64,000 nt of DNA from Pristiophorus japonicus (GCF_044704955.1 NC_091979.1:304296001-304360000); one strand, 5' to 3'. Shown: positions 8,082-55,518, numbered from the stretch's first letter. Translations and numbers: made by a program. Notes: a model not told the origin generated them from the letters alone.

Positions 8082-8717
8082 TTATTATTCATTCACAGGC
8101 TGAGGGCGTCACTGGCAAGGCCAGCATTACAACAAAGTGGCTTGCGAGGCCACTTCACAGGACAGTTAAGAGTCAATCACATTGGTGTGGGTTAGAAGCC
8201 AGACCAGGTGAGGATGGCAAGTTTCCATCTCGGCCTTTTGGCTAAGATCTGCATAACTAACCTGACCAGCCACCATGACCTCCGGGTGGTTTCTCCCTGG
8301 TCAGGAAGGTATATGCTTACATTTTTGTAAACAGGAGGTGGGTGGGATGGCTTGACCCATCCACCTCCACGGAGGTGTGTGGGGGACCTGACCCATCCAC
8401 CTCCATGGCACGAACCTGGTATTGCAGTACTTCCAGGAACGGTGCAGTGGCTCTAGGCCTTTTGGCTAAGAGCATTGGCGCAGAGTGATCCTTGACTGGT
8501 GCAGGGTGACCTCTGGCGTTTGTGACTTGACAAAGAATTGGAAACGATTGGCTACGAATTTATATTTAAAAAAAAAGTTTCCATCCCTAAAGGATATTAG
8601 TCAACCAGTTAGGTTTTTATGACAGTCTGACAGTTTCATGGTCACTTTTACGGATACCAGCATTCTCACATTTTCCGGATTATCAGTCCAAGCCTCTGGA
8701 TCACTAATCCAATAATA
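8082..8717 (-). mobile_element. Old SINE with LINE-derived tail; host of the U2/U1 insertion
   Basis: CCAGACCAGGTGAGGATGGCAAGTTTCC|ATCCCTAAAGGATATTAG is contiguous once 8230-8585 is removed; tail related to 30560-30600. Confidence 0.6.
8230..8576 (+). mobile_element. U2/U1 snRNA-derived chimeric retroelement (SINEU-like)
   Basis: U2 stem-loop I TCGGCCTTTTGGCTAAGATC; U1-like 8253-8305; Sm-like ATTTTTG; duplicated SLIII-like hairpin; U2 SLIV ACCTGGTATTGCAGTACTTCCAGGAACGGTGCA; second SLI; A-tail; TSD AAGTTTCCATC at 8219-8229 and 8575-8585. Confidence 0.85.
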
Positions 8718-10067
8718 TCATCATCACAGGCAGTCCCTCAGAATCCAGGAAAACTTGCTTCCACTCAAAGTGTCTCAGGTGACTGAACAGTCGAATACGG
8801 GAATTACAGTCTCTGTCGCAGGTGGGGCAGTCGTTGGAGGAAAGGATGGGTGGGGAGTCTGGTTTACCGCACGCTCCTTCCGCTGTCTGCGCTTGTTTTC
8901 TGCATGCTCTCGGCGACGAGACTTGAGGTGCTCAGTGCCCTCCCGGATGCTCTTCCTCCACTTAGGACGGTCTTTGGCCAGGGATTCCCAGGTGTCGTTG
9001 GGAAATGTTGCACTTTATCAAGGAGGCTTTGAGGGTGTCCTTGAAACGTTTCCTCGGCCCACTTGGGGCTCGCTTGTCGTGTAGGAGTTCAGAGTAGAGC
9101 ACTTGCTTTGGGAGTCTTGTGTCAGGCATGCGGACAATGTGGCCCGCCCAACGGAACTGGTCGAATGTGGTCAGTGCTTCGATGCTGGGGATGTTAGCCT
9201 GGTCGAGGACGCTAATGTTGGTGTGTCTGTCCTCCCAGGGGATTTGCAGGATCTTGCGGCAGCATTGTTGGTGATATGTCTCCAGCGATTTGAGGTGTCT
9301 ACTGTATATGGTCCATGTTTCTGAGCCATACAAGAGGGCGGGTATCACTACAGCCCTGTGGACCATAAGCTTGGTGCCAGATTTGAGGGCCTGATCTTCA
9401 AAAACTCTCTTCCTCAGGCAGCCGAAGGCTGCGCTGGCACACTGGAGGCAGTGTTGAACCTCGTCATCGATGCCTGCCCTTGCTGATAAATAGGCTCCTG
9501 AGGTATGGAAAGTGGTCCACGTTGTCCAGGGCCGCACCGTGGATCTTGATGACGGGGGTGCAGTGCTGTGTGGTGGGGTCAGGTTGGTGGAGGACCTCTG
9601 TCTTACGGATGTTTAGTGTAAGGCCCATGCTTCGTACGCCTCGGTGAAGATGTTGACGATGACTTGAAGTTCAGTCTTTAAATGTGCGCAAACGCAAGCA
9701 TCATCCGCGTACTGTAGTTCGACGACAGAGGATGGGACGGTCTGGGATCTGGCCTGGAGGTGACGAAAGTTGAACAGGTTCCCACTGGTTCTAGTGTTTA
9801 GTTCCACTCCAACAGGGAGCTTGTTGAGTGTGAGGTGGAGCATTGCAGCGAGGAAGATCGAGAAGAGGGTTGGCGCGATGACGCAGTCCTGCTTGACCCC
9901 CGTCCGGACATTGATTGGGTCTGTGGTGGATCTGTTGGTAAGGATCACGGCCTGCATGTCGTTGTGGAGCAGGCAGAGGATGGCGACAAACTTTTGGGGG
10001 CAGCCGAAACGGAGGAGGAAGCTCCATAGTCCCTCGCGGTTAACAGTGTCAAAGGCCTTTGTAAGGT
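8718..10067 (-). mobile_element. RTE (BovB-like) LINE, 3' part, degraded; continues at 11996-12070
   Basis: LTKAFDTVNREGLW, ELQYADD and DTRLPKQVLYSEL motifs; (GAT)n tail at 8718. Confidence 0.92.
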
Positions 10068-10652
10068 ACAGAGAAACATAGAAACATAGAAAATAGGTGC
10101 AGGAGTAGGCCATTCGGCCCTTCTAGCCTGCACCACCATTCAATGAGTTTATGGCTGAACATGCATCTTCAGTACCCCATTCCTGCTTTCTCACCATATC
10201 CCTTGATCCCCCGAGTAGTAAGGACTTCATCTAACTCCTTTTTGAATATATTTAGTGAATTGGCCTCAACAACTTTCTGTGGTAGAGAATTCCACAGGTT
10301 CACCACTCTCTGGGTGAAGAAATTCCTCCTCATCTCGGTCCTAAATGGCTTCCCCCTTATCCTTAGACTGTGTCCCCTGGTTCTGGACTTCCCCAACATT
10401 GGGAACATTCTTCCTGCATCTAACCTGTCTAACCCCGCCAGAATTTTAAACGTTTCTATGAGGTCCCCTCTCATTCTTCTGAACTCCAGTGAATACAAGC
10501 CCAGTGGATCCAGTCTTTTTGATAGGTCAGTCCCGCCATCCCGGGAATCAGTCTGGTGAACCTTCGCTGCACTCCCTCAATAGCAAGAATGTCCTTCCTC
10601 AGGTTAGGAGACCAAAACTGTACACAATACTCCAGGTGTGGCCTCACCAAGG
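10068..10652 (-). mobile_element. CR1 LINE 3' fragment, left arm of a composite insertion
   Basis: [15 protein letters not shown]...ELDEVLTTRGIKGYGEKAGMGY; (TTTCTATG)n tail near 10070. Confidence 0.92.
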
Positions 10653-11454
10653 TCCATCAGTACGGTGGGTTCCATCAGTACGGCTGGGACGGCAATAATT
10701 TCCTCACCTTGGACATGGAGCACAGTGTGTGGGTCACCCGGTACACTGGGGGGAGATCACCAAGAACAGGTGGAACCAGGACAGGGTCGGACTGCTGCAG
10801 GACAAGGGTTACCTGGAGCAGGATTGCATCGAGTGGCTGAAGAAATACCTGAAAGCCGGAGCGAGAGATCTGAGAGCTGTTGCACCAGCCGTGTCCTTTA
10901 CTCGTCCGGGCGATGCTAAACAGCTGTCCTGTGTCACCATCGGGTTTTACCCTCAAGCCATCGAGGTGACTCTGCGGAGAGACGGAAAGTTCCTCGATGA
11001 GACCCAGTCCCAGTGGGATCCACCCCAACCACCACGGCATCTACCAGAACAGATGGACGGAGTTTGACCCCGAGGACCAGGGCAGGTTCTCCTGTGAGGT
11101 GGAGCAAGGCGGGCTCGAGGGGAATGTCGTGGTCTTTTACGTGTGGAAGCCTGGCTCCCAAGTCCCTATTATTGTCGGTGTTGTGTTTGAGCTTCTGGCG
11201 CTGCTCGTCATTCTCGCCATTGTGGCTGTCGTCATCAAAAAAAAAAGCGGGGAAGGAGAGCGGATACAATCCCGCGAAGACTTCTGATAAAGGGGAATCC
11301 CCATCAAACTCCTCCGTCCCGTGTCCCGCTGATACTCCAAGGACGTCAGTCCACAGTCAGTCAGCGTGGAGAGAGAATCGGGGAGGGTGGCTTTTCATCG
11401 CGGTGATGGCGATTGACTGACGGCTCTGCGTCTGTGACCCTGTTTAATTGTAAC
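10653..11454 (+). pseudogene. Processed MHC class I alpha chain pseudogene (shark UAA-like): partial alpha2, alpha3, TM, cytoplasmic tail and part of the 3'UTR, intronless, frameshifted
   Basis: GGFHQYGWDG...WGEITKNRW...GYLEQDCIEWLKKYL...LSCVTIGFYPQAIEVT...FSCEVE...hydrophobic TM...GYNPAKTSDKGES contiguous across normal exon junctions; frameshifts near 10740, 11010 and in the poly-A at ~11240. Confidence 0.93.
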
Positions 11455-11995
11455 GGTGGGGGTTGTAGGCCGGGGCCACTACAGGGAGCAGCGTGCAGTG
11501 GCATACCACTGCAGAGAGCAGCGCGTGCGCTGCAGGAAGGCGATGGCTGCGAAGTCCGGTCGCTGACTGCAGTGCGGGCAGGCACAGCAGGAGGGGCGAA
11601 GGAGCGGCAAGAGTTTGTGGAAGGAAGTGACCAGGGCCCAGGAGAGGCGTGAGTTTGGGGCTCAGAAGAGGCGAGGGCCCAGGGGCAGCACGGGCCAGCC
11701 CACACTGCGATGTGTGCGGCGCTCGGTCTGTGCAGCTGAGCTGGTCTCCAGTCATCTTGGGTAATCCTTGCCATTGGACCAAGACCTAGCTCTGTCACGC
11801 CCATCTGGTGGCTGGTGTGCAACGACCACCACGCGTTAAAGAAATTCACGTACCGGGAACTTCCACCCCTTCCAGATGTAGTTTGGGACCTGGAATATTA
11901 GGTCCTTCATTGAAACACCTGTGAACTCATCCCTTTTTGGTGTGGAAGGGATGAGTTCACAGGTGTTTCAATGAAAGGGACCGCCGATGATGATG
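11455..11995 (+). mobile_element. Non-autonomous RTE-tailed element (bipartite RTE/SINE-like)
   Basis: GC-rich non-coding body; ends GTGGAAG...AGGGACCGCCGATGATGAT like the RTE tail at 30140-30193; 5' boundary approximate. Confidence 0.7.
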
Positions 11996-12070
11996 TAAGG
12001 TCACTGAAGACCATGTACAAGGGTTGGTGCTGTTCCCTGCATTTCTCTTGCAGTTGTCACGCCATAAAGA
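11996..12070 (-). mobile_element. Continuation of the RTE LINE at 8718-10067
   Basis: Encodes QLQEKCREQHQPLYM, which lies immediately N-terminal of DLTKAFD; TGTAAGGT is duplicated. Confidence 0.85.
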
Positions 12071-12608
12071 AAATATAACAACTACACTACCGCCATTTGA
12101 ATATTGGGGTCAAGGGATGCCTGTTAGGCCTAGGCTCACAGTGTCCTGGTTGGGCATATGTTGGGAGGTGTTATCACATAACATAATGGTTTAAGGACTG
12201 AACTACTCAAAACTCGATTACTCACAGTGCCAGGTACACAATAAGCTGGTGGAGGGACTATAGAGTCTCTAGGACTGCATTGAGAAGCTGATAAGATAAA
12301 TCTGATTCACTGTTCCATATTCGTTGTAAGAATTCCTTACATCTCCCCCGGTTGTTTGCAGCACTGTCTGGGAGATTAACCTCAGAATCCTGGTGACTCT
12401 GGAACAATCTGGGAGGGTCAGTAACCGGACATCCACAGAATGTCGCCTCGCACTGGGCTCAAAGGATAACGGCCAGCCACAGTAAAACTCTGTGACAACA
12501 AGCCCCGCCCCTTCTCCTCCTCCCCACCACGCCCCAGTCTGCCACGACTACCCGGCAGAAATTCAGCTGGGGTCAGGGGGGGCATCGCCATGAAGAGAGA
12601 GTCCCAAC

Positions 12609-19695: not shown

Positions 19696-22270
19696 TCATC
19701 ATCATAGGCAGTCCCTCGGAGTCGAGGATGACTTGCTTCCACTCTAAAAGTGAGTTCTCAGGTGACTGTACAGTCTAATGTGGGGCCTACAGTCTGTGTC
19801 ACAGGTGGGGCAAGGGTGGGTGGGGAGCCTGGCTTGCCGCACGCTCCTTCTGCTGTCTACGCTTGGTTTCTGCTTGTCCTCGACAATGGGACTCAAGATG
19901 CTCAGCGTCCTCCCGGATGCTCTTCCTCCACTTTAGGCGGTCTTGGGCCAGGGACTTCCCAGGTGTCGGTGGGGATTTTGCACTTTATCAAGGAGGCTTT
20001 GAGGGTGTCCTTGAAGCATTTCCTCTGCCCACCTGGGGCTCTTTTGCCGTGTCGAAGCTCCACATGGAGCGCTTGCTTTGGCAGTCTCGTGTCGGGCATG
20101 TGGACGATGTGACCCGCCCAACGGAGCTGATCAAGCGTGGTCAATGCTTCGATGCTGGGGCTGTTGGCCTCAGCGAGAACACCGATGTTGGTGTATCTAT
20201 CCTGCCAATGGATTTACAGGATCTTGCGGAGGCAGCGTTGGTGGTATTTCTCCAGTGCTTTGAGGTGCCTGCTGTATATAGTCTACGTCTCTGATTCATA
20301 TAAGAGGGCGGGTATCACTACTGCCCTATAGACCATAAGCTTACTGCTGGATTTGAGGTCCTGGTCTTCAAACATACGAAGCTATACCAGGTATTGGTGA
20401 GGCCACACCTGGAATACTGCATGCAGTTTTGGTTTGCATATTTATGAAAGGATATACGTGCTTTGGAGGCAGTTCAGAGAAGGTTCACTAGGCTGATTCC
20501 GGGGATGAGGGGGTTGACTTATGAGGAAAGTTTGAGTAGATTGGGCCTCTACTCATTGGAGTTCAGAAGAATGAGAGGTGATCTTATCGAAACATGTAAG
20601 ATTATGAGGGGGCTTGACAAGGTGGATGCAGAGAGGATGTTTCCACTGATTGGGGAGACTAGAACTAGAGGGCATGATCTTAGAATAACAGAGATGAGGA
20701 GGAATTTCTTCTGTGAGAGGGTTGTAAATGTGGAATTTGCTGCCTCGCAGAGCTGTGAAAGCTGGGACATTGAATAAATTTAAGACAGAAATAGACAGTT
20801 TCTTGAGCGATAAGGGGATAAGGGGTTATGGGGAGCAGGCAGGGAAGTGGAGTTGAGTCCATGATCAGATCAGCCATGATCTTATTGAATGGCGGAGCAG
20901 GCTCGAGGGGCCGTATGGCCTACTCATGTTCTTATGTAAACACTCTCTTCCTCAGGCGACCGAAGGCTGCACTGGCGCACTGACCTCGTTGTCAATGTCT
21001 GCTCTTGCTGACAGTAGGCTCCTGAGGTATGGGAAATGATCCACATTATCCAAGGCCTCATTGTGGGTTCTGATAATCGGGGGGCAGTGCTGTGTGGTGG
21101 GGTCAGGTTGGTAGAGTGTGCTTAGCGCAAGGCCCATGCTCGCGTACGCCTCGGTAAAGGTGTTGATAATGATTTGGAGTACGGCCTCCGATTGTGCGCA
21201 GATGGAAGCGTCGTCTGCATACTGTAGTTCAATGACAGAGGATGGGACGACTTTGGATCTGACTGACCTGGAGGCGGCAGAGGTTGAACAGATTCCCATT
21301 TGTTCTATAATTTAGCTCCACTCCAGCAGGGAGCTTGCTGAGGGTGAGATGAAGCATTGCAGCAAGGAAGATCGAAAAGAGCGTTGGCGCGATGACACAG
21401 CCCTGCTTGACCCCGGTCCAGACGTGGATTGGGTCTGTGGTGGATCCATTGGTCAGGATCACAGCTTGTATGTCGTCGTGGAGCAAACAGAGGATGGTGA
21501 AAAACTTTTGAGGGCAGCCGAAACAGAGGAGGATGCTCCTTAATGCCTCACCGTTGACAGTGTCAAAGGCTTTTGTGAGGTCAAAGGCGGCCATGTACAA
21601 GAGTTGGTGCTGTTCCCTACATTTCTCTTGTAGTTGTCGCGCGGTGAAGATCATGTCCGTTGTACCCTCAATGGACGGAATCTGCATTGCGACTCTCGGA
21701 GGAGCTCTTCAGCCACAGGGAGAAGACGATTGAGGAGGATTCTTGCAATGACTTTCCCTGTGTCCGACAGCAGGGAGATTCCTCTGTAGTTACCTCAGTC
21801 AGACTTGTCCTCTTTTTTGAAGATGGTCACGATTAAGGTATTTCTGAGACCTTCTGGCATGCTCTCCTCCTTCCAGATAAGAGAAATGAGGTCATGTATT
21901 TTGCCAATAGTGCTTCTCCGCCACGTTTCAGTGCTTCGGCGGGAATTCCATCTGCTCCTGTTGCCTTGTTATTCTTCAGCTGACAGATGGCCTTTTCTAC
22001 CTCGTGCAGGGCTGGGGTTGTGCTGAGATGGTGGCGGGTAGCATGCTGCGGGATGGAGTCGAGGACACTCGCGTCGAAGGCAGTCTCTGTTAAGGAGATC
22101 TTCGAAATGCTCATTCCAACGGGCACTGACTGCCCCTCTGTCCTTGATGGGTACCTCACCGTTCTTGACCCTCAGTGGCCTTGGGTGGTTGAGCCGTAAG
22201 TGGTCTTGACTGAGCTGAAGAATCCACGTACATCGTGGTTGTCGGTTAACTGTTGGATCTTCTGTGCTAT
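19696..22270 (-). mobile_element. RTE LINE, degraded, interrupted by a CR1
   Basis: GTTDMIFTARQLQEKCREQ, FDLTKAFD and ELQYADD motifs; (GAT)n tail at 19696. Confidence 0.9.
20375..20937 (+). mobile_element. CR1 LINE 3' fragment nested in RTE
   Basis: LVRPHLEYC and [14 protein letters not shown]; flanked by an AAACA duplication. Confidence 0.9.
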
Positions 22271-26860: not shown

Positions 26861-29800
26861 CACTGCCTCCATGGAGTTGATTTTGCTATCAAGAACGAGC
26901 TGGTCGACCGCCTCAGAGACTCCCCCTGTGGGAATAGCGAGCGTCTCATGACTCTCCGATGCACCCGATCCTGGAACCAGTGTGCCACAGTCATCACTGC
27001 ATACGCCCCAACACTCGATGCAACAGATGAGGCCAAAGAGGGTTTTTACTCCAGCCTCGAAAAATCCCGACGGGCGACAAGCTGATCCTCCTCAGTGACT
27101 TCAACGCCAGGTTCAGCAAGTACACAGACCTCTGGGGAGGCGTGATCGGCAGAGAGGGGGTAGGGAAACCCAACTCCAGCAGTACCCTACTCCTGACAAA
27201 ATGCCTGGAGCACGACCTCGTCATCACCAACACCTTGTTCCGCCAGAGGGACAAATACAAGGCATCATGGCAACACCCTCACTCCAAACATTGGCACCTG
27301 CTCGACTAGGTCATCGTTCGAGCCAGGGATCGCAAGGATGTGCGCATCACCTGCGCCATGACAGGAGCGGACGGCTGCTGGATGGACCACCGCCTAAGCC
27401 GATCCATCATCAACATCAATATAGCCCCAAAGTGGTGACGGCAGCAGAAGCAGTGCCGCAAAAGTCAATGCCGGGGCACTCAAAGATCCAGCTTAGAGAG
27501 CCCTATACAGCCAGCGCCTCACTGCTAACCTCGCGACCCTTGATGACCCCGAGACGCAGAATGCCCACAGCTTGGTCTGCCCTCCAGGCCACCATAACCA
27601 GTGCCTGCGAAGAGACGCTCAGTCACTCAACCAGGAAACACCAGGATTGGTTTCATGAAAATGACCAGGAGATCCAAGAGCTAATAAATTGCAAGCACAG
27701 GGCATTTCTGAACCTAAAACAACCCAACTCGAGAGCAGCAAAGCAGCTTTACAGACGGCTTAAGGCCGAGGTCCAATAAAAAACCCTCGACCTAAAGAAT
27801 AGATGGTGGGTGGAGAAAGCACAGGAGATACAGCAAGCTGGCCAACAGCCATGATGTGCGAGGATTCTTCATCGCAGTCAAGGCCACCTACGGTCCAAAC
27901 ACCCAAGGCCCCACCCCACTGCTGGCCAAGAACGGGGAGACACTCATCAAGGACACCGAGGCATCAGGACCATTGGAAGAAGCACTTCGAAGATCTCCTT
28001 AACAGAGACTCTGCCTTTGACTCGAGTGTCCTCGACTCCATCCTGAGATGGTAGCATGCTACTCGCCACCATCTCAGCAAAACCCCAGCCCTGCACGAGG
28101 TAGAAAAGGCCATCCACCAGTTCAAGAACAACAAGGCCACGGGAGCGAATGGAATCACCGCCAAGGCACTAAAGTATGGTGGAAAGGCACTATTGGCATG
28201 AATGCATGACCTCATCTCTCTCATTTGGAAGGAGGAGAGAATGCCGGGAGATCTCAGAGATGCAGTGATCGTGACATCTTTAAAAAAGGGGACAAGTCCG
28301 ACTGCGGCAACTACAGAGGAATCTCCCTGTTATCAGCCACTGGGAAAGTCATCGCTAGAGTCCTCCTCAACCGTCTTCTCCCTGTGGCTGAGGAGCTCCT
28401 CTTGGAGTCACAGTGTGGATTTGGTTCTCTATGGGGTACAACGGACATGATTTTTATAGCGCGACAGCTGCAAGAAAATTGTAGGGAATAGCTTCAACCG
28501 TTGTACATGGCCTTCTTTGATCTTACAAAGAGTAGGGCCTTGGGTGTTTGAGCCGTAGGTGATCTTGATTGCGCTGAAGAATCCTCGCACATCATGGCTG
28601 TCGGCCAGCTGTTGTATCTCCTGTGCTTTCTCCACCCACCATCTGTTCTTTAGGTCGCGGATTTTTTGTTGGACCTCAGCCTTAAGCCGCCTGTAAAGCT
28701 GCTTTGCTGCTCCAGAGTTGGGTTGTTTTAGGCTCTGAAATGCCCTGCGCTTGTGATTTATTAGCTCTTGGATCTCCTGGTCATTCTCATCAAGCCAGTC
28801 CTGGAATTTCCTGGTTGAGTGACCGAGCGTCTCTTCGCAGGCACTGGTTATGGGTGGCCTGGAGGGCAGACCAAGCTGTGGGCAAAGGCCTTTGACACTG
28901 TCAACCGTGAGGGACTATGGAGCGTCCTCCTCCGTTTCGGCTGTCCCCAAAGATTTGTCACCATCCTCCGCCTGCTCCTTGACGACATACAAGCCGTGAT
29001 CCAGACCAACAGATCCACCACAGACCCAATCCACGTCCGGACCGGGATCAAGCAGGGCTGCGCCATCACGCCAAGCCTCTTCTCGATCTTCCTCACTGAC
29101 ATGCTCCACCTCACACTCAACAATCTCCCCGCTGGAGTGGAACTAAACTACAGAACCAGTGGGAACCTGTTCAACCTTCGTCGCCTCCAGGCCAGATCCA
29201 AGACCGTCCCAACCTCTGTCGTCGAACTACAGTACATGGACGACGCCTGCGTCTGTGCACATACAGAAGCAGAACTCCAAGTCATAGTTAACATCTTCAC
29301 TGAGGCGTATGAAAGCATGGGCCTTACGCTAAACATTTGTAAGACAAAAACCCTTCACCAACCTGACCCCCAGTCATCAAGATCTGCGGCGCGGCCCTGG
29401 ACAACGTGACCATTTTCCATACCTCGAGAGGCTATTATCAGCGAGGGCAGACATTGACGCGAGGTTCAACACTGCCTCCAGTGCGCCAGCGCAGCCTTCG
29501 GCCGCCTGAGGAAAAGAGTGTTTGAAGATCAGGTCCTCAAATCTACCACCAAGCTCATGGTCTACAGGGCTGTAGTAATACCCGCCCTCCTGTATGGCTC
29601 AGACGTGAACCATATACTGTAGACACCTCAAATCGCTGGAGAAACACCACCACGATGTCTCCGCAAGATCCTGCAAATCTCCTGGGAGGACAGGCGCATT
29701 AACGTTAGCGTCCTCGATCAAGCCAACACCCCCAGCATCGAAGCACTGACCACACTCGACCAGCTCCGCTGGGCGGGCCACTTTGTTTGCATGCCGACAC

Positions 29801-30193
29801 GAGACTCCCTAAGCAAGCGCTCTACTCGGAACTCCTACACGGCAAGCGAGCCTCAGGTGGGCAGAGCAAACGTTTCAAGGACGCCCTCAAAGCCTCCTTG
29901 ATAAAATGCAACATCCCCACCGACACCTGGGAGTCCCTGGCCAAAGACAGCCCTAATTGGAGGAAGAGCATCCGGGAGGGCACTGAGCACCTCGAGTCTC
30001 GTCACTGAGAGAATGCAGAAAACAAGCGCGGGCAGCGGAAGGAGCGTGTCCGTCCCACCACCCTTTTCTTCAACCATTGTGTGTCCCACCTGTGACAGAG
30101 ACTGTAATTCCCGTATTAGTCACCTAAGAACTCACTTTTAGAGTGGAAGCAAGTCTTCCTCGATTTTGAGGGACTGCCTATGATAATGATGAT
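26861..30193 (+). mobile_element. RTE LINE (APE endonuclease part + RT), degraded, with internal inverted segment
   Basis: AYAPT, DFNAR, HPHSKHWHLLD, KKGDKSDCGNYRGISLL and KAFDTVNREGLW; GAGGGACTGCCTATGATAATGAT tail. Confidence 0.92.
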
Positions 30194-31830
30194 GGATTTG
30201 TACAGCTCCAACAACACAAGAAGCTCAACACCATCCGGGACAAAGCAGCCAGTTTGATCGGCACCTCATCCACCACCTTAAACATTCAATTCCTCCATCA
30301 CCGTGTCTACAGTGTGCACCATCCACATGACCCACTGCAGCAACTGGCCAAGGCTTCTTCAGCAGCACCTCCCAAACCCGCGACCTCTACCACCTAGAAG
30401 GACAAGGGCGGCAGGCGAATGGGAACACCACCACCTCTAAGTTCCCCTCCAAGTTGCACACCAACCTGATTTGTCACTGCGTTAAAATCCTGGAACTCCC
30501 TCCCTAACAGCTCTGTGGGAGTACCTTCACCACACGGACTGCAGCGGTTCAAGAAGGCAATTAGGGATGGGCAATAAATGCTGGTTTTATCAGCTCACCT
30601 CCCAGCAACAAAAGTTGTTAAAGCTCCAGGTCAGTGTTGGGGCACCTGTTGTTTATAATTTTTATTAAGTGGAATATGATCCAAGATGTCGAAGTTTATG
30701 GATGACATCAAGTTTGTTCAGTGGCCAATGATGCTAACCAATGTTCTTGCTGAACTCCCTCAGCTGCAATCCCCCAATGCCTCAAATTAACAACTATGGT
30801 CCATGTAAATGTATATTATCGCTGCACAAAATATCTCTTAATGGTAAATTCAGAAAGGTCACAGCCAGTGATGGACAGACATTTGTAGACAACTGCAATT
30901 TACATTTGGCGGTTTGTGAGGAAGAAGACTTCACTCAGCGCAGAGCCGCCATGTACTTTTCCACAAAATAAATTTTGCCAAACAGCGTTTTGCTGAGGGG
31001 CAGTTGATTCATGGTGCAGGCAGTGGTAAAACTCATTCCCGTGATACAGCACAGCTCACCTCAAGGCAAGTTCATATCCGTGATTTAAAAGGAAATGTAA
31101 ATTCATGGACAATGTGTTCTACGTGAATATAGTGTTGCAAAATATAATTCAGTGAAAACTCACCCACCTACAATAAACTAGATGTGTAATGCTTGCAAAG
31201 GATAACAGTGAATCACAAAATTTGTTCAATTTCTTATCCATCTTAATTGTACAATAAGCAATTTTATTGCACAAAAGTACCAGCATATTTATCCTGCACT
31301 ATAAATTATACAGGCACTAATTACCATGCTAAATAAATCAAAGTCATCAGGGAGTAACTGTGATGCAGTTCAAGATAAACATTACATGGAAAATATTTAA
31401 ATGTTATTTCTTTTTCTGAAGCATATGCACAATTTGAAGGGATGATCAATTGAAAGCACAAACTGCTTTAATTGCTAATACTAGGGGCTCAATTTTCCCC
31501 AAGCCCATTTTCTGCCGTATTGCCAGAAATACGCCAGTTTTTCTAGATCAGAAATGCGGCAGAAATATTTTGCCAAAGTTTCCCCGATGTATAATTCGAA
31601 TTTGGCGTCACGCAGCGTGTCCAGTCACCTCGCGGGGTGGAGTCTGCTGTCTGCGCCAAAAAAAAATGCCATACCTTCTGCGCATGCGCGGGAAAAAAAG
31701 TAAAGTTTTTAACGTCGTTGCAATGGACGCACATGCTCAGTACAGCTCCCAGTTGGCAATCGGCCATTTTTAAAGAGCCAGTTGTGTGTGTGAGAAGGAG
31801 TGCTGTGTGAGAGCATTGGAAAAATCGCAG

Positions 31831-33816
31831 CTGGAGCAACACAAGATGTAACGCGGAGCACAGACCAAGAATTTCTTACAGGAAGAAGTGGAGGCACTAG
31901 TTACTGTGATTGGGAACAGATGGCAGGAGTTGGACATTAGCAGAGGTCACATAAAAGTTCCACTAAAAGAAATGAAGAAACGCTGGAACCAAGTTGCAGA
32001 TGATTACTGTGCAATGGTGAACACCACGAGATCTGGAAGCCAGTGTAAAAAGAAATGGCCAGACCTTTAGCAAGTAGTTAGTGTAAATAATATTTTCATT
32101 TATTCAATGCAATTGTAAATGTGACCATCTGTATATGTTCCACCCTGCAGAAAGGCACCCTCTCTAGAAAGTTGTATTTTAATCTTTGCAGAGGAAAATG
32201 GCTCGCAACAAAAGGGAAAGAACTCGAATAGGAGGAGGCCCGGCAAATCTGCAGCCACTGACACCCTTGGAAGAGAGGGTCGCTGCTTTGATGGGACCTG
32301 GAAAAAAGCAATCAGTACTGCACAAGGAGAGGGTAAGTCCTGCAAATTCACCGTGGCCCTTCAAATCAGCCTGCTGCCTGGCCTGCCATGTGTGAGCCTA
32401 CTCATGCCACACACCCTGCTCCCTCCTCTGCTGCTGTTGTCTGTTCTGTTATATTTTGCAGAACTGGAGGCCAACGCTGACGATGCAGATGATTCAGACG
32501 CAGACGAGCCTGAAGAGGAGAACATCTTCCAATTCATCCATGGGGATTAGGGGGAGGGGATGGAGCTGGATAAAGTTCCCACTGTTCTACTGACTTTGGA
32601 GGATGTGCTGCTCAAGGAGGTGACAGCCTCTTCAGTGACTAGTGGTTTGAATGTTGGTGGGACATTCCATGGTTTCACACCTTCTGAGATTGTGGGTCCC
32701 AGTAGTGGGGTGCAGTGAGGCACACCCAAGGCCCCACCGTCCCAGGCTGTGGGTCCCAGTAGTGGGGTGCAGTGAGGCACACCCAAGGCCCCACCGTCCC
32801 AGGCTGTGGGTCTCAGTAGTGGGGTGCAGTGAGGCACACCCAAGGCCCCACCGTCCCAGGCTGTGGGTCCCAGTAGTGGGGTGCAGTGAGGCACACCCAG
32901 GGCCCCACCGTCGCAGGCTGTGGGTCCCAGTGATGTGGTGCAGTGAGGCACACCCAGGGCCCCACCATCCCAGGCTGTGGGTCCCAGTGATGTGGTGCAG
33001 CAAGGCACACCCAGGGTCCCACCATCCCAGGCTGTGGGTCCCAGTGATGTGGTGCAGCAAGGCACACCCAGGGTCCCACCATCCCAGGCTGCGGGTCCCT
33101 GTGGTGTGGTGCAGCAAGGCACACCCAGGGCCCCAACGTCCCAGGCTGCGGGTTCCAGTGGTGTGTTGCGAGGCACACCCATGGGGAGGAGGGGACGGAG
33201 AGCTGGACCGCGCTCTCCTGAGATGCAGGATTTAACAGATGTGAGTCAGAGGATGTCATTGAGTGCAGAGAGCATTGACCTTACCCGATCACTCCCAGAC
33301 ACCATCCATGCGGTGAGTGATGAGGTAGCGGGACTGTTGGGAGAAGTAACAACACTCTCACGAAAAATGGGAACGATATCTGGGACCATCAGTGAAGGAA
33401 TAGTGTCCATGAGGGAGGGAATGTCAGAGGTAGTGCAAACCACATCACTGACCATGAAGGAGGGAATGTTGCAGGTAGTTGAGACACTGTCAGGGTGCAT
33501 GAGGGACGGCATGTTGGAGTTAGCTGCTGCAATAAGGGACCACACCCAGACCCCGCGCCCATTGACAGAATCAACTGCCACTCCCACTGCAATCCCCACA
33601 CCAGCCTCTGAAGAGCCCAAAGCCGGGCCGTCCAACTTGCCACCTGACGCGGACGCTGCTGCCCCCCCCCCCACCCACCCCCACCCTCAAGAGGTGCGCA
33701 GTACCCGAGATGTTAGAAAGAATAAGCTTGGTACCAAGCCCAGAAACACTGCCACCGCCTGCGGGCAGGGGTGGTGGAGTATCCAAGACCAAGCGCAGCG
33801 GGCGGTCTTAGAATAA
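31831..33816 (+). pseudogene. Harbinger Myb/SANT-like DNA-binding protein pseudogene (3 exons: ~31831-32082, 32192-32332, 32462-33816)
   Basis: TKNFLQEEVEAL...RWNQVA...RSGSQCKKKWPDL; GT-AG introns; several in-frame stops. Confidence 0.8.
32692..33180 (+). repeat. 57-bp minisatellite, ~8.6 copies
   Basis: Unit GTGGGTCCCAGTAGTGGGGTGCAGTGAGGCACACCCAAGGCCCCACCGTCCCAGGCT starting at 32692, 32749 ... 33148. Confidence 0.95.
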
Positions 33817-47669: not shown

Positions 47670-48957
47670 TTAACACAACACAACGTAGGAACAACTGCAA
47701 AGAATAAACATGTCCATGCGCAACAGTGGTCGCAGAGCCCTCAGGCAACAGTAATTGAAGCGTTTACGGATGAGCTGCTGGCGCAATGCTCGAGCAATCG
47801 TTAAAGGAGCACGATGGACGGTCCTCCTCCGACCTCGTGCTCCGGCATCAGTCATTTGTATGCTTTCTTGATCGTCGTCATCATCCACATCCTGCTCTTC
47901 CGTAATACTATCATCATGCACTGGAGCCTCACGTTGGTCTTCTGGTTCCACTACCAGCTCCTGCTGCCTCATGATGGCTAAGTTATGCAGCATGCAGCAC
48001 ACAACAGTGAACTGACCGACAATCTGAGGAGAGTACAGCAAGTGGCCTCCAGAATGGTCCAGGCATCGGAAACGCTGTTTCAAGATGCCAATGGTCCTCT
48101 CAATGATGCTGCGCGTCGCAATGTACGCCATGTTGTATTGACGGTCAGCTTCTGTCCATGTCACGCGTAGCGGACGTCATGAGCCAGGTGGTCTGGCCGT
48201 ACCCTTTGTCTCCCAGCAGCCAGCTCTGCCCTTCTGGCTGCTGCTCAAACATGTCAGATATAACGCTGTGGCGTAGGATGAACGCATCATGGGTGCTGCC
48301 AGGGTATCTCGCATCGGCTGACATGATGTGCTGCTTGTCGTCACACACATTGATGAAATGGAAACCTTTTCTATTCCTGTACTGCTCTGAATCCTCCACT
48401 GGTGCTCGCAAGGCTATGTGGGTACAAACCAATGCAGCCCTGTACCTTTGGGAAGCCAGAAAGCCTGAAGAAGCCCACAGCCCTCTCATGGATCGCTGTG
48501 CGGTCATTGGGAACTTGATGAAGTCATTCCTCCGCGCATACAGTGCAGCCGTGACCTGGTAAACGCAGGCGTGTATTGCACGTTGAGAGATGGCGCACAC
48601 ATCTCCAGTTGTAGTCTGAAACGATCCCGAGGCATAGAAGGCAAGTGCAGCTGTTACCCTCACTTCAACAGTCGAGGCAGTTGGTGTTCTGCTTCTGGGC
48701 TGCAAATCTGCTCTCAGCATATCACAGATCTCAGCGACAACTTCTCTGTGGAAACGCAGCCTTTTGACACAATCAGCCTCGCTCGTGTCCAGGTACGAGC
48801 GCCTGGTTCGATATTGCCGATGTGGGTAAGACCTCCTGCCCATCAGCCTACGGGCTATGACGGTCCTGGTGCGGTGAGCTCCAATCAATTCTCTCTTATG
48901 CAGTGAATTGATGGAGAACCATTGCATAATCCGTGGTGTTGACAATGCAGCACCCAT
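47670..48957 (-). pseudogene. Harbinger (HARBI1-type DDE) transposase pseudogene
   Basis: ALAFYASGSFQ, CTHIAL (preceding Asp lost), NRKGFHFIN, YPGSTHDAFIL, LLGDKGY, RSIIERTIGILKQRFRCLD, CCMLHNL; several frameshifts. Confidence 0.93.
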
Positions 48958-49565
48958 TCTGCAAATTTAAGTTTCAAACTGGCTATCTGGCTGCCTCGCC
49001 CTGTCCCTGGCCGAATGGCCTCAGCTTCCCTCGCAGCTCGAAGGCTGCTTGCTTGCTGTGTCTTCGGCTGCCATTGAGTCACTGACGCCGCCCGTCTCCT
49101 ACATGGAAGGCCTGCCTGAAGCACCGCAGCTCGAAGGCTGCTGCTTCACACAGGTAGGAATATTCAATATTTTTTCTTTGCTTTGTTTATAATCTTTTAG
49201 TCAGGATGGCTCTTTATTTGTATAAGTAAGACTGTTGAATGCTTGTCCCTTCGACCCCCCCCCCATTCCCTACCCCTGATTTGTAAAGTGTAAGCAAGAT
49301 TTTTCTGAGCATACAAAAATCTACACTTACTCCATTCTAAGTTAGTTTGGAGTAAGTTTTCACTGCCTAAACTTTCAAAACAGGCATAAGTGACCAGACA
49401 CGCCCCCTTTTGAAATAAAATCAGTTCCAAAATGAAACTGTTCTAACTGACAAGAACTGGAGCAAACTAAAGGCCGAGAATTGCAATTTCTAAGATACTC
49501 CATCCTAAACCAGTTGCTCCAAAAAAAATAGGAGCAACTCAGGCCGAAACTTGACCCCATTATTA

Positions 49566-50643
49566 CAGGTCCAAAATCCGGAGTTCCAGAATCCAGAATG
49601 TTCCAGAATCCGGACACCGGGCCGATCCGCGGCGGGGTCGTCCGGAAACCGAAAAATGTTCCGATATCCGGACTTCCCCCGCCTCGGCGAACCGACCTCA
49701 CCCCGGCCCGACCTCGCTCCGGCACCCCTCCCTCCCCTTTACCTCGGCTGCCCGACTCCACCTACCTCGGGCCAGACAAGGAACTCCTCCACGTCGGGGG
49801 GGCCCCGCACGAACAACTCGGCGATGGCGAGGCCCCACCCGGCAACGTGAACAGCTCATCGATGAGCACCCCCCTCTCTTCTCCCCCCCCCCCCCACCGC
49901 TCCCCACGCCCCACTCCCCCCCACCACCACCGCTCCTCGTCGCCCCCCCGGCAACGCGAACAGCTCATCGATGAGCACCCCCCCTCTCTTCTCCCCCCCC
50001 CCCCCCCCCACTGCTCCCCACGCCACCGCTCCTCGCCCCCCCCCGGCAACGCGAACAGCTCATCGATGAGCACCCCCCCTCTCTTCTCCCCCCCCCCCCA
50101 CTGCTCCCCACGCCACCGCTCCTCGCCCCCCCCCCGGCAACGCGAACAGCTCATCGATGAGCACCCCCCCTCTCTTCTCCCCCCCCCCCCCCACTGCTCC
50201 CCACGCCACCGCTCCTCGCCCCCCCCCGGCAACGCGAACAGCTCATCGATGAGCACCCCCCCTCTCTTCTTCCCCCCCCCCCCCCACGCCCCACTCCCCC
50301 CCACCACCACCGCTCCTCGCCCCCCCCCCCAGCAACGCGAACAGCTCATCGATGAGCACCCCCCCTCTCTTCTCCCCCTCCCCCCCCACCGCTCCTCGCC
50401 CCCCCCCCCGGCAACGCGAACAGCTCATCGATGAGCACCCCCCCTCTCTCCCCTCCCCCCACCCCCACCCCTCCCCGCGCGGCCCCCCTCCCTCACTCGA
50501 CATTTCAAAATCCGGAAATACCCGAAACTGGGCTCGGGTGTTTCCGGATTCGTGATGTCAGAAAGACGTTCCAAAATCCGGCAAAACACAAAATCCGGAA
50601 CGGCCTCTGTCCCGAGGGTTCCGGATTCAGGACGCTGCACCTG
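49566..50643 (+). mobile_element. Tigger-like MITE (same family as 39653-40427) with internal ~60-bp C-rich minisatellite
   Basis: TA|CAGGT...ACCTG|TA; repeated GGCAACGCGAACAGCTCATCGATGAGCACCCCCC at 49840-50442. Confidence 0.8.
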
Positions 50644-54077: not shown

Positions 54078-55518
54078 TAAGAACTTAAGAAAATAAGAAA
54101 TAGGAACAGGAGTAGGCCATATGGCCCCTCGAGCCTGCTCTGCCATTCAATACGATCATGGCTGATCCGATCATGGATTCAGTTCCACTTCCCTGCCCAC
54201 TCCCCATAACCCCTTATCGTTTAAGAAACTGTCTATTTCTGTCTTAAATTTATTCAATGTCCCAGCTTCCACAGCTCGTTGAGGCAGCAAATTCCACCGA
54301 TTTACAACCCTCAGAGAAGAAATTTCTCCTCATCTCTGTTTTAAATGGGCGGCCCCTTATTCTAAGATCATGCCCTCTAGTTCTAGTCTCCCCCATCAGT
54401 GGAAACATCCTCTCTGCATCCACCTTGTCAAGCCCCCTCATAATCTTGTACGTTTCGATAAGATCACCTCTCATTCTTCTGAATTCCAATGAGTAGAGGC
54501 CCAACCTACTCAACCTTTCCTCATATGTCAATCCCCTCATCCCCAGAATCAACCTTGTGAACCTTCTCTGAACTGCTTCCAAAGTATACCCTTTCGTAAA
54601 TATGGAAACCAAAACTGCATGCAGTATTCCAGGTGTGGCCTCACCAATACCTTGTATAGCTGTAGCAAGACTTACCTGCTTTTATACTCCATCTCCTTTG
54701 CAATAAAGGCCAAGATACCATTGGTCTTCCTGATCATTTGCTGTACCTGCATACTATCCTTTTGTGTTTCATGCCCAAGTACCCCCAGGTCCCGCTGTAC
54801 TGCAGCACTTTGCAATCTTTCTCCATTTAAATAATTATTTGCTCTTTGATTTTTTTCTGCCAAAGTGCATGACCTCACACTTCCCAACATTTTACTCCAT
54901 CTGCCAAATTTTTGCCCACTCACTTAGCCTGTCTATGTCCTTTTGCAGATTTTTTTTGTCCTCCTCCCACATTGCTTTTCCTCCCATCTTTGTATCGTCA
55001 GCAAACTTGGCTACGTTACACTCAGTCCCTTCTTCCAAGTCGTTAACCTGTGGAATTCCCTGCCGCAGAGAGTTGTTGATGCCAGTTCACTGGATATATT
55101 CAAGAGGGAGTTAGATATGGCTCTTACGGTTAAGGGGATCAAGGGGTATGGAGGGAAAGCAGGAAAGGGGTACTGAAGGAATGATGAGCCATGATCTTAT
55201 TGAATGGCGGTGCAGGCTCGAAGGTCCGAATGGCCTACTCCTGCACCTATTTTCTATGTTTCTATGTTAATATAGATTGTAAATAGTTGGGGTCCCAGCA
55301 CTAATTCCTGCGGCACCCCACTGGTTGCCAACCCGAGAATGAACCATTTATCCAGACTCTCTGTTCGTTAGCCAATCCTCTATCCATGCTAATATATTAC
55401 CCCGAACCCCATGAACTTTTATCTTGTGCAGTAACCTTGTCAAATGCCTTCTGGAAGTCCAAATATACCACATCCACTGGTTCCCCTTTATCCACCCTGT
55501 TTGTTACATCCTCAAAGA
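54078..55518 (-). mobile_element. CR1 LINE fragment with nested CR1
   Basis: Reverse-complement homolog of 5683-6819; RT motifs. Confidence 0.9.
55047..55265 (+). mobile_element. Short CR1 3' end inserted antisense into a CR1
   Basis: NLWNSLPQRVV...KGYGGKAGKGY; TTTCTATG tail; GTTAA duplicated at 55042 and 55266. Confidence 0.85.

What the first reader, a model, noticed from the sequence alone, without database searches (positions are those of the whole stretch)
10060..12002. Composite insertion: antisense CR1 + MHC class I cDNA + RTE-tailed element inside one 8-bp TSD, with tails facing outward at both ends
Seen: an RTE is split at its DLTKAFD codons, with TGTAAGGT duplicated at 10060-10067 and 11995-12002. 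Between the copies lie a CR1 whose 3' tail abuts the left TSD, an intronless MHC class I fragment, and a non-autonomous element whose (GAT)n RTE tail abuts the right TSD. A 13-nt duplication TCCATCAGTACGG (10653, 10671) marks the CR1/MHC junction. Inference: either two different RNAs were primed on the two nicks of one target site and joined head to head, or a CR1 later landed at the 5' edge of an RTE-mobilised MHC retrocopy.
Basis: partly seen in the sequence, partly recalled or inferred. Interest (0 to 1): 0.75.

Follow-up and report, generated by a model that had tools for sequence, protein, structure and literature searches.

The report
Two stacked insertions with MHC retrocopy
Inside a decayed shark retrotransposon lie, back to back, a CR1 element and a broken intron-less copy of an MHC class I gene, and a third short copy of the landing site between them means they likely arrived as two ordinary insertions at one spot, not in one rare two-RNA event.

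Summary
The anatomy is real. The insert holds an antisense CR1, an intronless 5'-truncated shark class I cDNA with 3' UTR, and an RTE-tailed element. It gives the CR1 its own 5-bp duplication; two other nested CR1s in the window have 4 and 5 bp. The likely history is an RTE-made MHC retrocopy (8-9-bp TSD) followed by a CR1 at its left edge. My rough chance estimate for such a hit is 1e-3 per junction. A coupled form, in which CR1 primes on the RTE's second nick, gives the same sequence and is not excluded: about 9%. Dating was inconclusive and no empty or CR1-less allele could be tested. Side findings: a perfect 30-bp fold-back replaced part of the RTE tail, and the DNA-like run holds other intronless class I pieces.

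The parts
8716..10067 (-). Host RTE-clade LINE, 3' part (RT from DLTKAFD, C-terminal region, (GAT)n tail at about 8716-8727)
   Evidence: 84.8% to the RTE copy at 28883-30190
10050..10061 (.). 12-bp palindrome CAAAGGCCTTTG, the longest in the host RTE, overlapping the TSD start
10060..10067 (+). Left copy of the 8-bp target duplication TGTAAGGT
10068..10652 (-). 5'-truncated CR1, 585 nt, (TTTCTATG)n tail at the left end
   Evidence: family continues past 10652 with C, not T
10649..10654 (+). Third target copy AAGGT(C): AAGG is CR1-templated, TC is the start of the MHC piece; read as the CR1's own 5-bp TSD
10653..10683 (+). 13-nt direct duplication TCCATCAGTACGG (10653-10665, 10671-10683) at the 5' end of the MHC cDNA
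10653..11318 (+). Processed class I pseudogene: end of alpha-2, alpha-3, TM, cytoplasmic tail; three frame changes (near 10735, 11011, 11240)
11319..11469 (+). Class I 3' UTR; a paralogous contig aligns to 11469 and then goes on for 112 unlike letters; no poly(A) signal or A-run downstream
   Evidence: record 13
11470..11995 (+). High-copy non-autonomous element with an RTE-type 3' end and (GAT)n tail; left border approximate; no tRNA gene called
   Evidence: depth table and loose ends at 11948
11906..11975 (.). Perfect 30-bp inverted repeat (11906-11935 / 11946-11975); the right arm replaces about 18 nt of the family's RTE-type tail
   Evidence: (table 7)
11994..12001 (+). Right copy of the 8-bp target duplication; its first TG is also the end of the (GAT)n tail
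11994..12070 (-). Host RTE, 5' remainder (RQLQEKCREQHQPLYMVFSDLT), 5'-truncated
   Evidence: 81-83% to two other RTE copies

Best explanation
This is likely a double insertion at one site: RTE machinery likely first copied an RNA made of a class I mRNA and an RTE-tailed element into an older RTE, and a CR1 likely landed later on the left edge of that retrocopy. Step 1 (inferred): a bottom-strand nick primed on the (GAT)n tail through 2 nt of homology (TG). Reverse transcription ran through the element and the spliced class I message, stopped in the alpha-2 exon, and was joined to the target through T or TC with an 18-nt slip that left the 13-nt duplication. The result was an 8- or 9-bp TSD, TGTAAGGT(C). 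The RNA was probably a class I transcript carrying the element in its 3' UTR; a template switch is the alternative. Step 2 (inferred): CR1 primed on a top-strand nick after AAGGT, was truncated at 585 nt, and joined through 4 nt of homology (AAGG), duplicating AAGGT. Shown: the three target copies, the orientations, the missing introns and the homologies. Not shown: the order, the interval, and the parent gene.
For: The layout is target-CR1-target-retrocopy-target: AAGGT stands at 10063, 10649 and 11997 and nowhere else in 10001-12100. The CR1 family continues with C after AAGG (loose ends at 10652), so the T is not CR1. A target match this long across a random junction has probability 0.78% (>=6 nt) and 2.1% (>=5 nt) in 1,981,926 CR1 x MHC junction pairs, and 0.98% and 3.0% in 300,000 insert-wide draws. 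2 of 2 other CR1s in the window whose empty site could be read from a sister copy have short TSDs: AAAC at 20370/20938 and GTTAA at 55042/55266, the second a close relative of this CR1 (84-88%) with 2 nt of 5' homology. A target copy inside the junction is the published sign of double insertion (PMC5932611, passages). 8-9 bp fits the RTE range of 7-15 bp and the TSD starts with T (PMC6007223, passages). Two nested CR1s in 8,034 bp of host elements give about 1e-3 (1e-4 to 4e-3) per junction for a chance hit within 4 nt with the tail outward. For comparison, 11.5% of 113 Alu/L1 chimeras, about 13, were antisense in a mammal-wide alignment survey (10.1101/2025.02.02.635956, section 23). A second RTE copy is broken within 3 nt of the same position, at the same palindrome.
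Against: The third copy has no base that CR1 or MHC cannot supply, so it can be chance (1-3%); the null was framed after the match was seen. The CR1 nick falls exactly at, or 1 nt inside, the end of the RTE TSD, which is what a shared nick predicts. Ages could not be separated: private changes were 18 of 224 for this CR1 (sister copies 15 and 9) but 57 of 1,211 for the host RTE that must be older, so subfamily structure swamps the signal. No CR1-less or empty allele was demonstrated. The nesting rate rests on 2 events. The T-stretch about 10 nt upstream of RTE-type TSDs is absent. No clear TSD was found for four other RTE copies in the window, so there is no local RTE TSD calibration. The one paralogous UTR contig that could be followed past 11469 does not enter the element (record 13), so a parent carrying it was not seen.
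Confidence: 0.75

Rival explanations
1. Coupled nick use. During the RTE-driven integration, after the cDNA had been joined to the left flank, a CR1 RNP primed on the still-open top-strand 3' end (..AAGGT). Its cDNA re-annealed 5 nt back through AAGG and second-strand synthesis went on. One episode, two LINE clades, three target copies.
For: The CR1 tail starts on the first base after the 8-bp TSD. There is no 3' homology between CR1 tail and target. The 13-nt slip and the 30-bp fold-back would fit one error-prone second-strand synthesis. RT extension of pre-existing DNA ends is described for L1 (PMC11702581, passages).
Against: It needs two different RNPs at one nick at once, whereas chance stacking is about 1e-3 per junction. 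The CR1 TSD is ordinary for this window. The nested CR1 at 20374-20937 also lacks 3' homology.
Confidence: 0.09
2. CR1 first. It made the AAGGT TSD in the RTE; the retrocopy then landed at the CR1's 5' junction with a 5-6-bp TSD AAGGT(C). The apparent 8-bp TSD is partly tail.
For: It also gives three target copies. TG of the right TSD copy can be read as (GAT)n tail.
Against: It needs an extra T between tail and TSD that happens to match the original target (about 1 in 12 with the tail phase; my estimate). 5-6 bp is below the usual RTE range of 7-15 bp. It loses the 3' homology.
Confidence: 0.07
3. Dual priming: CR1 RNA primed on the top nick, the MHC-element RNA on the bottom nick, and the two cDNA ends were joined directly. 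The third AAGGT(C) is chance.
For: Both tails abut one 8-bp TSD and face outward. The mechanism was postulated in PMC2837659 (passages). Nine two-RNA insertions, some in opposite orientation, were seen after L1 induction (PMC11702581). U5/L1 twin-primed chimeras exist (PMC4476161).
Against: It predicts two target copies, and a third sits on the junction (chance 0.8-3%). CR1 and MHC share no homology at the join once the target is left out. All published cases I read use one machinery, L1.
Confidence: 0.05
4. The composite was assembled elsewhere and moved as one RTE-driven transcript that was truncated by chance at the CR1 tail, or the join is a misassembly.
For: The window has assembly gaps (562 N). 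No listed contig spans the whole stretch.
Against: It needs two coincidences: truncation at the tail, and the third target copy. A contig of run X1 matches 10626-10953 with 0 differences across the CR1/MHC junction, though with only 27 letters on the left (below the tool's 31-letter bridging rule), and X1 may be the source sample. The RTE frame and TSD are coherent.
Confidence: 0.03

Closest known systems
Double insertion at one target site (McGurk and Barbash 2018, PMC5932611; passages read)
   Same: A copy of the target lies inside the junction between two adjacent elements; three copies in all.
   Different: There mostly same-family dimers in Drosophila; here two clades, head to head, with overlapping TSDs of different length (8-9 and 5 bp).
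Dual priming (Meyer et al. 2010, PMC2837659; passages read), two-RNA L1 insertions (PMC11702581; passages read), antisense Alu/L1 chimeras (10.1101/2025.02.02.635956; passages and section 23 read)
   Same: Two tails facing outward inside one apparent TSD.
   Different: Those have two target copies and one machinery (L1). This locus has a third copy and would need RTE and CR1 together.
Chimeric retrocopies made by stringent LINEs, such as U6-L2, U6-RTE and U6-SINE (Doucet et al. 2015, PMC4476161; Ohshima 2013, PMC3747384; passages read)
   Same: A cellular RNA enters the genome only joined to a LINE-type 3' end; 5'-truncated; short TSD; no poly(A).
   Different: The passenger is a spliced protein-coding mRNA joined mid-UTR, and the parent may have carried the element itself.
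Shark nonclassical class I, UBA lineage (PMC10751288, section 9 read; PMC12562908, passages read)
   Same: Closest proteins are multicopy shark class I sequences, 66-71% over alpha-2/alpha-3, including AAC60348-9, which I recall as the founding UBA clones.
   Different: This copy is intronless, 5'-truncated and frameshifted. PMC10751288 reports all class I genes inside the MHC; whether this window is in the MHC is unknown.

Membership tests
Dual priming (one event, two RNAs) | One TSD around two oppositely oriented cDNAs, tails outward | tested here: met
Dual priming (one event, two RNAs) | No target-derived sequence at the internal junction | tested here: not met
   AAGGTC at 10649-10654; chance 0.8-1.0% for 6 nt
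Dual priming (one event, two RNAs) | Both parts of one age and always inherited together | tested here: inconclusive
   Three-way divergence confounded; no informative allele
Double insertion at one site | Target copy inside the junction | tested here: met
Double insertion at one site | Each element has a TSD typical of its family | tested here: met
   CR1 5 bp against 4 and 5 bp locally; RTE 8-9 bp within the published 7-15 bp; no local RTE calibration
Double insertion at one site | An intermediate allele with one element only | not testable with these tools
   No genome held; contigs at 80% likeness cannot tell alleles from other RTE copies
Processed pseudogene (retrocopy) | Introns missing across exon borders | tested here: met
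   Continuous across the alpha-3/TM and TM/cytoplasmic borders defined by isoform pairs P0021/P0011 and P0015/P0027, and across alpha-2/alpha-3 (border recalled; a contig of X1 stops aligning at 10879, record 6)
Processed pseudogene (retrocopy) | TSD and a priming tail at the 3' end | tested here: met
   RTE-type (GAT)n tail instead of poly(A); TG overlap with the TSD
Processed pseudogene (retrocopy) | Identified intron-bearing parent gene | tested here: inconclusive
   Listed paralogous contigs differ at about 9-15% of sites; none is clearly the parent
RTE-dependent non-autonomous element (SINE-like) | 3' end shared with the RTE of the same genome | tested here: met
   Family loose end at 11948 and the last 20 nt match four RTE tails in the window
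RTE-dependent non-autonomous element (SINE-like) | Pol III (tRNA, 5S, 7SL) head | tested here: inconclusive
   No tRNA and no such Rfam match; the copy may be 5'-truncated, so it is not filed as a SINE
Shark UBA class Ib lineage | Groups with named UBA sequences apart from UAA, UDA and UEA | tested here: inconclusive
   90-column tree leaves the retrocopy in an open fork (86/87) with no lineage-labelled references; the UBA label is recalled

The most novel reading that the evidence does not exclude
A CR1 reverse transcriptase primed on the second nick of an RTE integration in progress, in the shark germ line, so that two LINE clades built one insertion, either by direct dual priming or by hijacking the half-finished 5' junction. 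The sequence cannot exclude this, because the CR1 tail begins on the first base after the RTE's TSD.
Probability: 0.14. Interest if true: 0.65.

Novelty: new member of a known kind. Interest (0 to 1): 0.3.

Why it matters
As most likely read it is a local curiosity with one practical lesson: 'two tails inside one TSD' should be checked for a third, shorter target copy hidden in the 5' homologies before dual priming is claimed. Of more lasting interest is that a shark class I mRNA was retrocopied through an RTE-type tail. Such retrocopies are described as rare where stringent LINEs dominate (PMC4476161), and run X1 holds other intronless class I pieces, so class I processed pseudogenes may recur in this shark and could inflate class I gene counts. 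If the coupled reading were true, it would be a natural germ-line case of cross-clade dual priming, which Meyer et al. postulated but could not validate. Seven paper searches listed no shark class I retrocopy and no CR1/RTE dual-priming case; they cover open-licence papers only.

Tried and rejected
No whole genome is held, so there was no genome-wide scan for similar pairs or for the parent gene. Run search: no RNA holder listed. Laying four of the eight listed runs at 80% likeness showed joints that skip the whole insert, but these cannot be told from other RTE copies and were not taken as an empty allele; 154 difference rows and 218 joints were not shown. Contig depth was not used for zygosity or expression. 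Dating by three-way private changes and by CpG content was rejected as confounded. TSD search for other RTE copies gave nothing clear. Rfam miRNA matches to the fold-back hairpin are far below gathering scores and reflect the hairpin only. A 27-nt pattern from the element found nothing in metagenome or viral contigs. Four look-ups of earlier findings returned nothing. A Pfam scan of 140 of 153 non-repeat open frames found no MHC-region gene, only a weak Kazal-like piece and a DDE transposase, so the chromosomal context is unknown. Considered and given low weight: three stacked insertions with a tailless MHC retrocopy primed at TGTAGG (11464-11469), since a paralogous UTR aligns through those bases. 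Ichiyanagi and Okada 2008 was seen only as cited in PMC6007223. No supplements were read; those of the bioRxiv papers (chimera tables) could hold cases with two tails.

Full report
Observation. The region was read directly. The host is an RTE-clade LINE on the minus strand whose frame reads LYMVFSDLT on the right and KAFDTVNREGLW on the left (RVT_1). Contigs of other RTE-like sequence that skip the insert overlap both sides by 8 letters (table 5), which confirms the empty site as TGTAAGGT|CACTG. The insert holds a 585-nt CR1 on the minus strand (10068-10652), a class I cDNA on the plus strand (10653-11469) and a high-copy element ending in the RTE tail (about 11470-11995).

The class I piece. 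It matches shark class I best (6lup, E 1e-25; 16 shark proteins at 56-71%). Isoform pairs in the protein set (P0021/P0011, P0015/P0027) skip the TM exon and so mark two exon borders; the window reads straight through both, and 653 nt cover about 217 codons. There are three frame changes, and no poly(A) signal or A-run after the stop region. It is a processed pseudogene. Its lineage is probably UBA, but that label rests on my recall of the accessions AAC60347-9 and the tree was unresolved. Listed paralogous contigs differ at about 9-15% of sites, so the parent was not found. In that output, record coordinates on the minus strand run against window coordinates (three contigs share a 1-nt overhang at 11246). 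On that reading record 13 shares the UTR up to 11469 and then goes on for 112 unlike letters, which places the UTR/element junction near 11470. TGTAGG at 11464-11469 resembles the start of the new target. This would fit an element sitting in the parent's UTR with its own duplication and a read-through RNA pairing with the new site, but that is inference. Records 5 and 8 of run X1 (kind guessed as DNA) bridge the exon borders with 28 and 20 differences from the window, so other intronless class I copies probably exist.

AAGGT occurs three times in 10001-12100: at 10063, 10649 and 11997. The middle copy lies on the CR1/MHC junction and extends to AAGGTC, matching the empty site across the nick. 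AAGG is CR1 sequence; the family goes on with C, not T. TC is the start of the duplicated MHC 13-mer. Each partner therefore overlaps a target copy by a short homology, as 5' junctions commonly do (PMC11702581, passages). Random CR1 x MHC junctions give a match this long in 0.78% of 1,981,926 pairs (2.1% for 5 nt); an insert-wide null gave 0.98% and 3.0% of 300,000. The null was framed after seeing the match, so I treat it as roughly 30- to 100-fold evidence, not proof. The two other CR1s in the window whose empty site can be read from a sister copy have 4-bp (AAAC, 20370/20938) and 5-bp (GTTAA, 55042/55266) duplications. A 5-bp AAGGT duplication is thus ordinary for CR1 here.

Mechanism. The simplest history is target-CR1-target-retrocopy-target. 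First RTE machinery primed on the (GAT)n tail with TG homology, copied the element and the spliced message, and joined the truncated end through T or TC, slipping 18 nt to leave the 13-nt duplication; TSD 8-9 bp, within the 7-15 bp given for RTE and starting with T (PMC6007223, passages), although the upstream T-stretch of that signature is absent. Then a CR1 inserted at the left TSD edge. The reverse order needs an extra matching T and a short RTE TSD, so I give it 0.07. Two nested CR1s in 8,034 bp of host elements put the chance of a tail-outward hit within 4 nt of a given junction near 1e-3 (1e-4 to 4e-3), enough for many cases per shark genome. A second RTE copy (about 26.9-30.2 kb, plus strand) is broken at the same 12-bp palindrome, within 3 nt, by a 352-nt inverted piece 91% identical to its own upstream region, with a 5-bp duplication; the third copy has the palindrome mutated and is intact there. 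With 2 of 2 this only hints at a fragile site.

What remains open. If a CR1 RNP primed on the open top-strand end of the unfinished RTE insertion and re-annealed through AAGG, the product would be identical. The exact abutment of tail and TSD is what that predicts. Only ages or alleles can decide, and neither was obtained: private changes were 8.0% for the CR1 but 4.7% for the host that must be older, and the single read-laying run could not separate alleles from family members. One contig of X1 matches 10626-10953 without a difference, which argues against a misjoin, but it has only 27 letters left of the junction and X1 may be the source sample.

The fold-back. A perfect 30-bp inverted repeat (11906-11935/11946-11975) replaces about 18 nt of the family tail, which loose ends at 11948 show in all four runs. 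The reverse complement of the upstream sequence predicts GAAGGACC where the copy has GAAAGGGACC, so a polymerase moving rightwards likely folded back on its own strand and returned through GGACC. Because it removes part of the 3' end that stringent LINEs are thought to need (PMC3747384, passages), it probably arose after priming. No change in 60 nt has probability 0.16 at 3% and 0.05 at 5% divergence, so it may be younger than the insertion.

Comparison with what is known. Two-RNA insertions in opposite orientation were seen after L1 induction (nine two-RNA cases, PMC11702581), as U5/L1 chimeras (PMC4476161) and among 113 Alu/L1 chimeras, 11.5% antisense (10.1101/2025.02.02.635956). A preprint on synchronous L1 insertions concerns two loci, not one site (10.1101/2024.08.27.596794, passages). 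A target copy inside the junction is the published test for double insertion (PMC5932611), and this locus passes it. Chimeric retrocopies by stringent LINEs are known for U6. Passages of PMC2912911, PMC7245038, PMC5322556 and PMC12562908 were also read. Seven searches of open-licence papers listed no shark class I retrocopy or CR1/RTE dual priming.

Verdict. Real, well-formed, most likely two stacked insertions (0.75 in the stated order, 0.82 in either order). A new member of known kinds; interest 0.3. The cross-clade shared-nick reading keeps about 0.14 and would deserve 0.65.

Noticed in passing
window 28526-28887: A second RTE copy is interrupted at the same CAAAGGCCTTTG palindrome by a 352-nt inverted piece of its own upstream region (27562-27914, 91% identical), with a 5-bp duplication CTTTG and no tail.
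   Followed up: partly
window 11906-11975: Perfect 30-bp fold-back in the RTE-tailed element; forms a hairpin of -64.5 kcal/mol as RNA and draws sub-threshold miRNA matches.
   Followed up: yes
run X1 records 5 and 8 (laid on window 10813-11010 and 11064-11296): Contigs of a DNA-like run bridge class I exon borders with 20-28 differences from the window: probably other intronless class I copies in this shark.
   Followed up: partly
window 11464-11469: TGTAGG at the UTR/element junction resembles the start of the target TGTAAGG; may be the element's own duplication in the parent UTR.
   Followed up: partly
window 54086-55430: A short CR1 (55047-55265, +) nested in an older CR1 (-) with TSD GTTAA, giving another head-to-head look that is plainly sequential.
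   Followed up: yes
window 20374-20937: CR1 nested in a third RTE copy with TSD AAAC.
   Followed up: yes
window 8222-8580: Two U2 snRNA 5'-end motifs (8228-8247, 8452-8471) with a 36-bp tandem repeat between them and an A-rich end near 8570; Rfam U2 49.6 bits against a gathering score of 46. Possibly a U2-headed or U2-targeting retroposon.
   Followed up: no
window 30855-30968 (+): Kazal/follistatin-like piece after a TTCAG acceptor-like site, perhaps a host exon (Pfam Kazal_2 E 0.0014, below cut-off; agrin E 6e-4).
   Followed up: partly
window 47673-48966 (-): DDE_Tnp_4 transposase pieces (Harbinger-like, label recalled), E 1e-13 and 4e-12.
   Followed up: no
window 32691-33181 and 49902-50476: A 57-bp tandem array (8.7 copies, 94%) inside an open frame, and a C-rich 93-103-bp minisatellite.
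   Followed up: no
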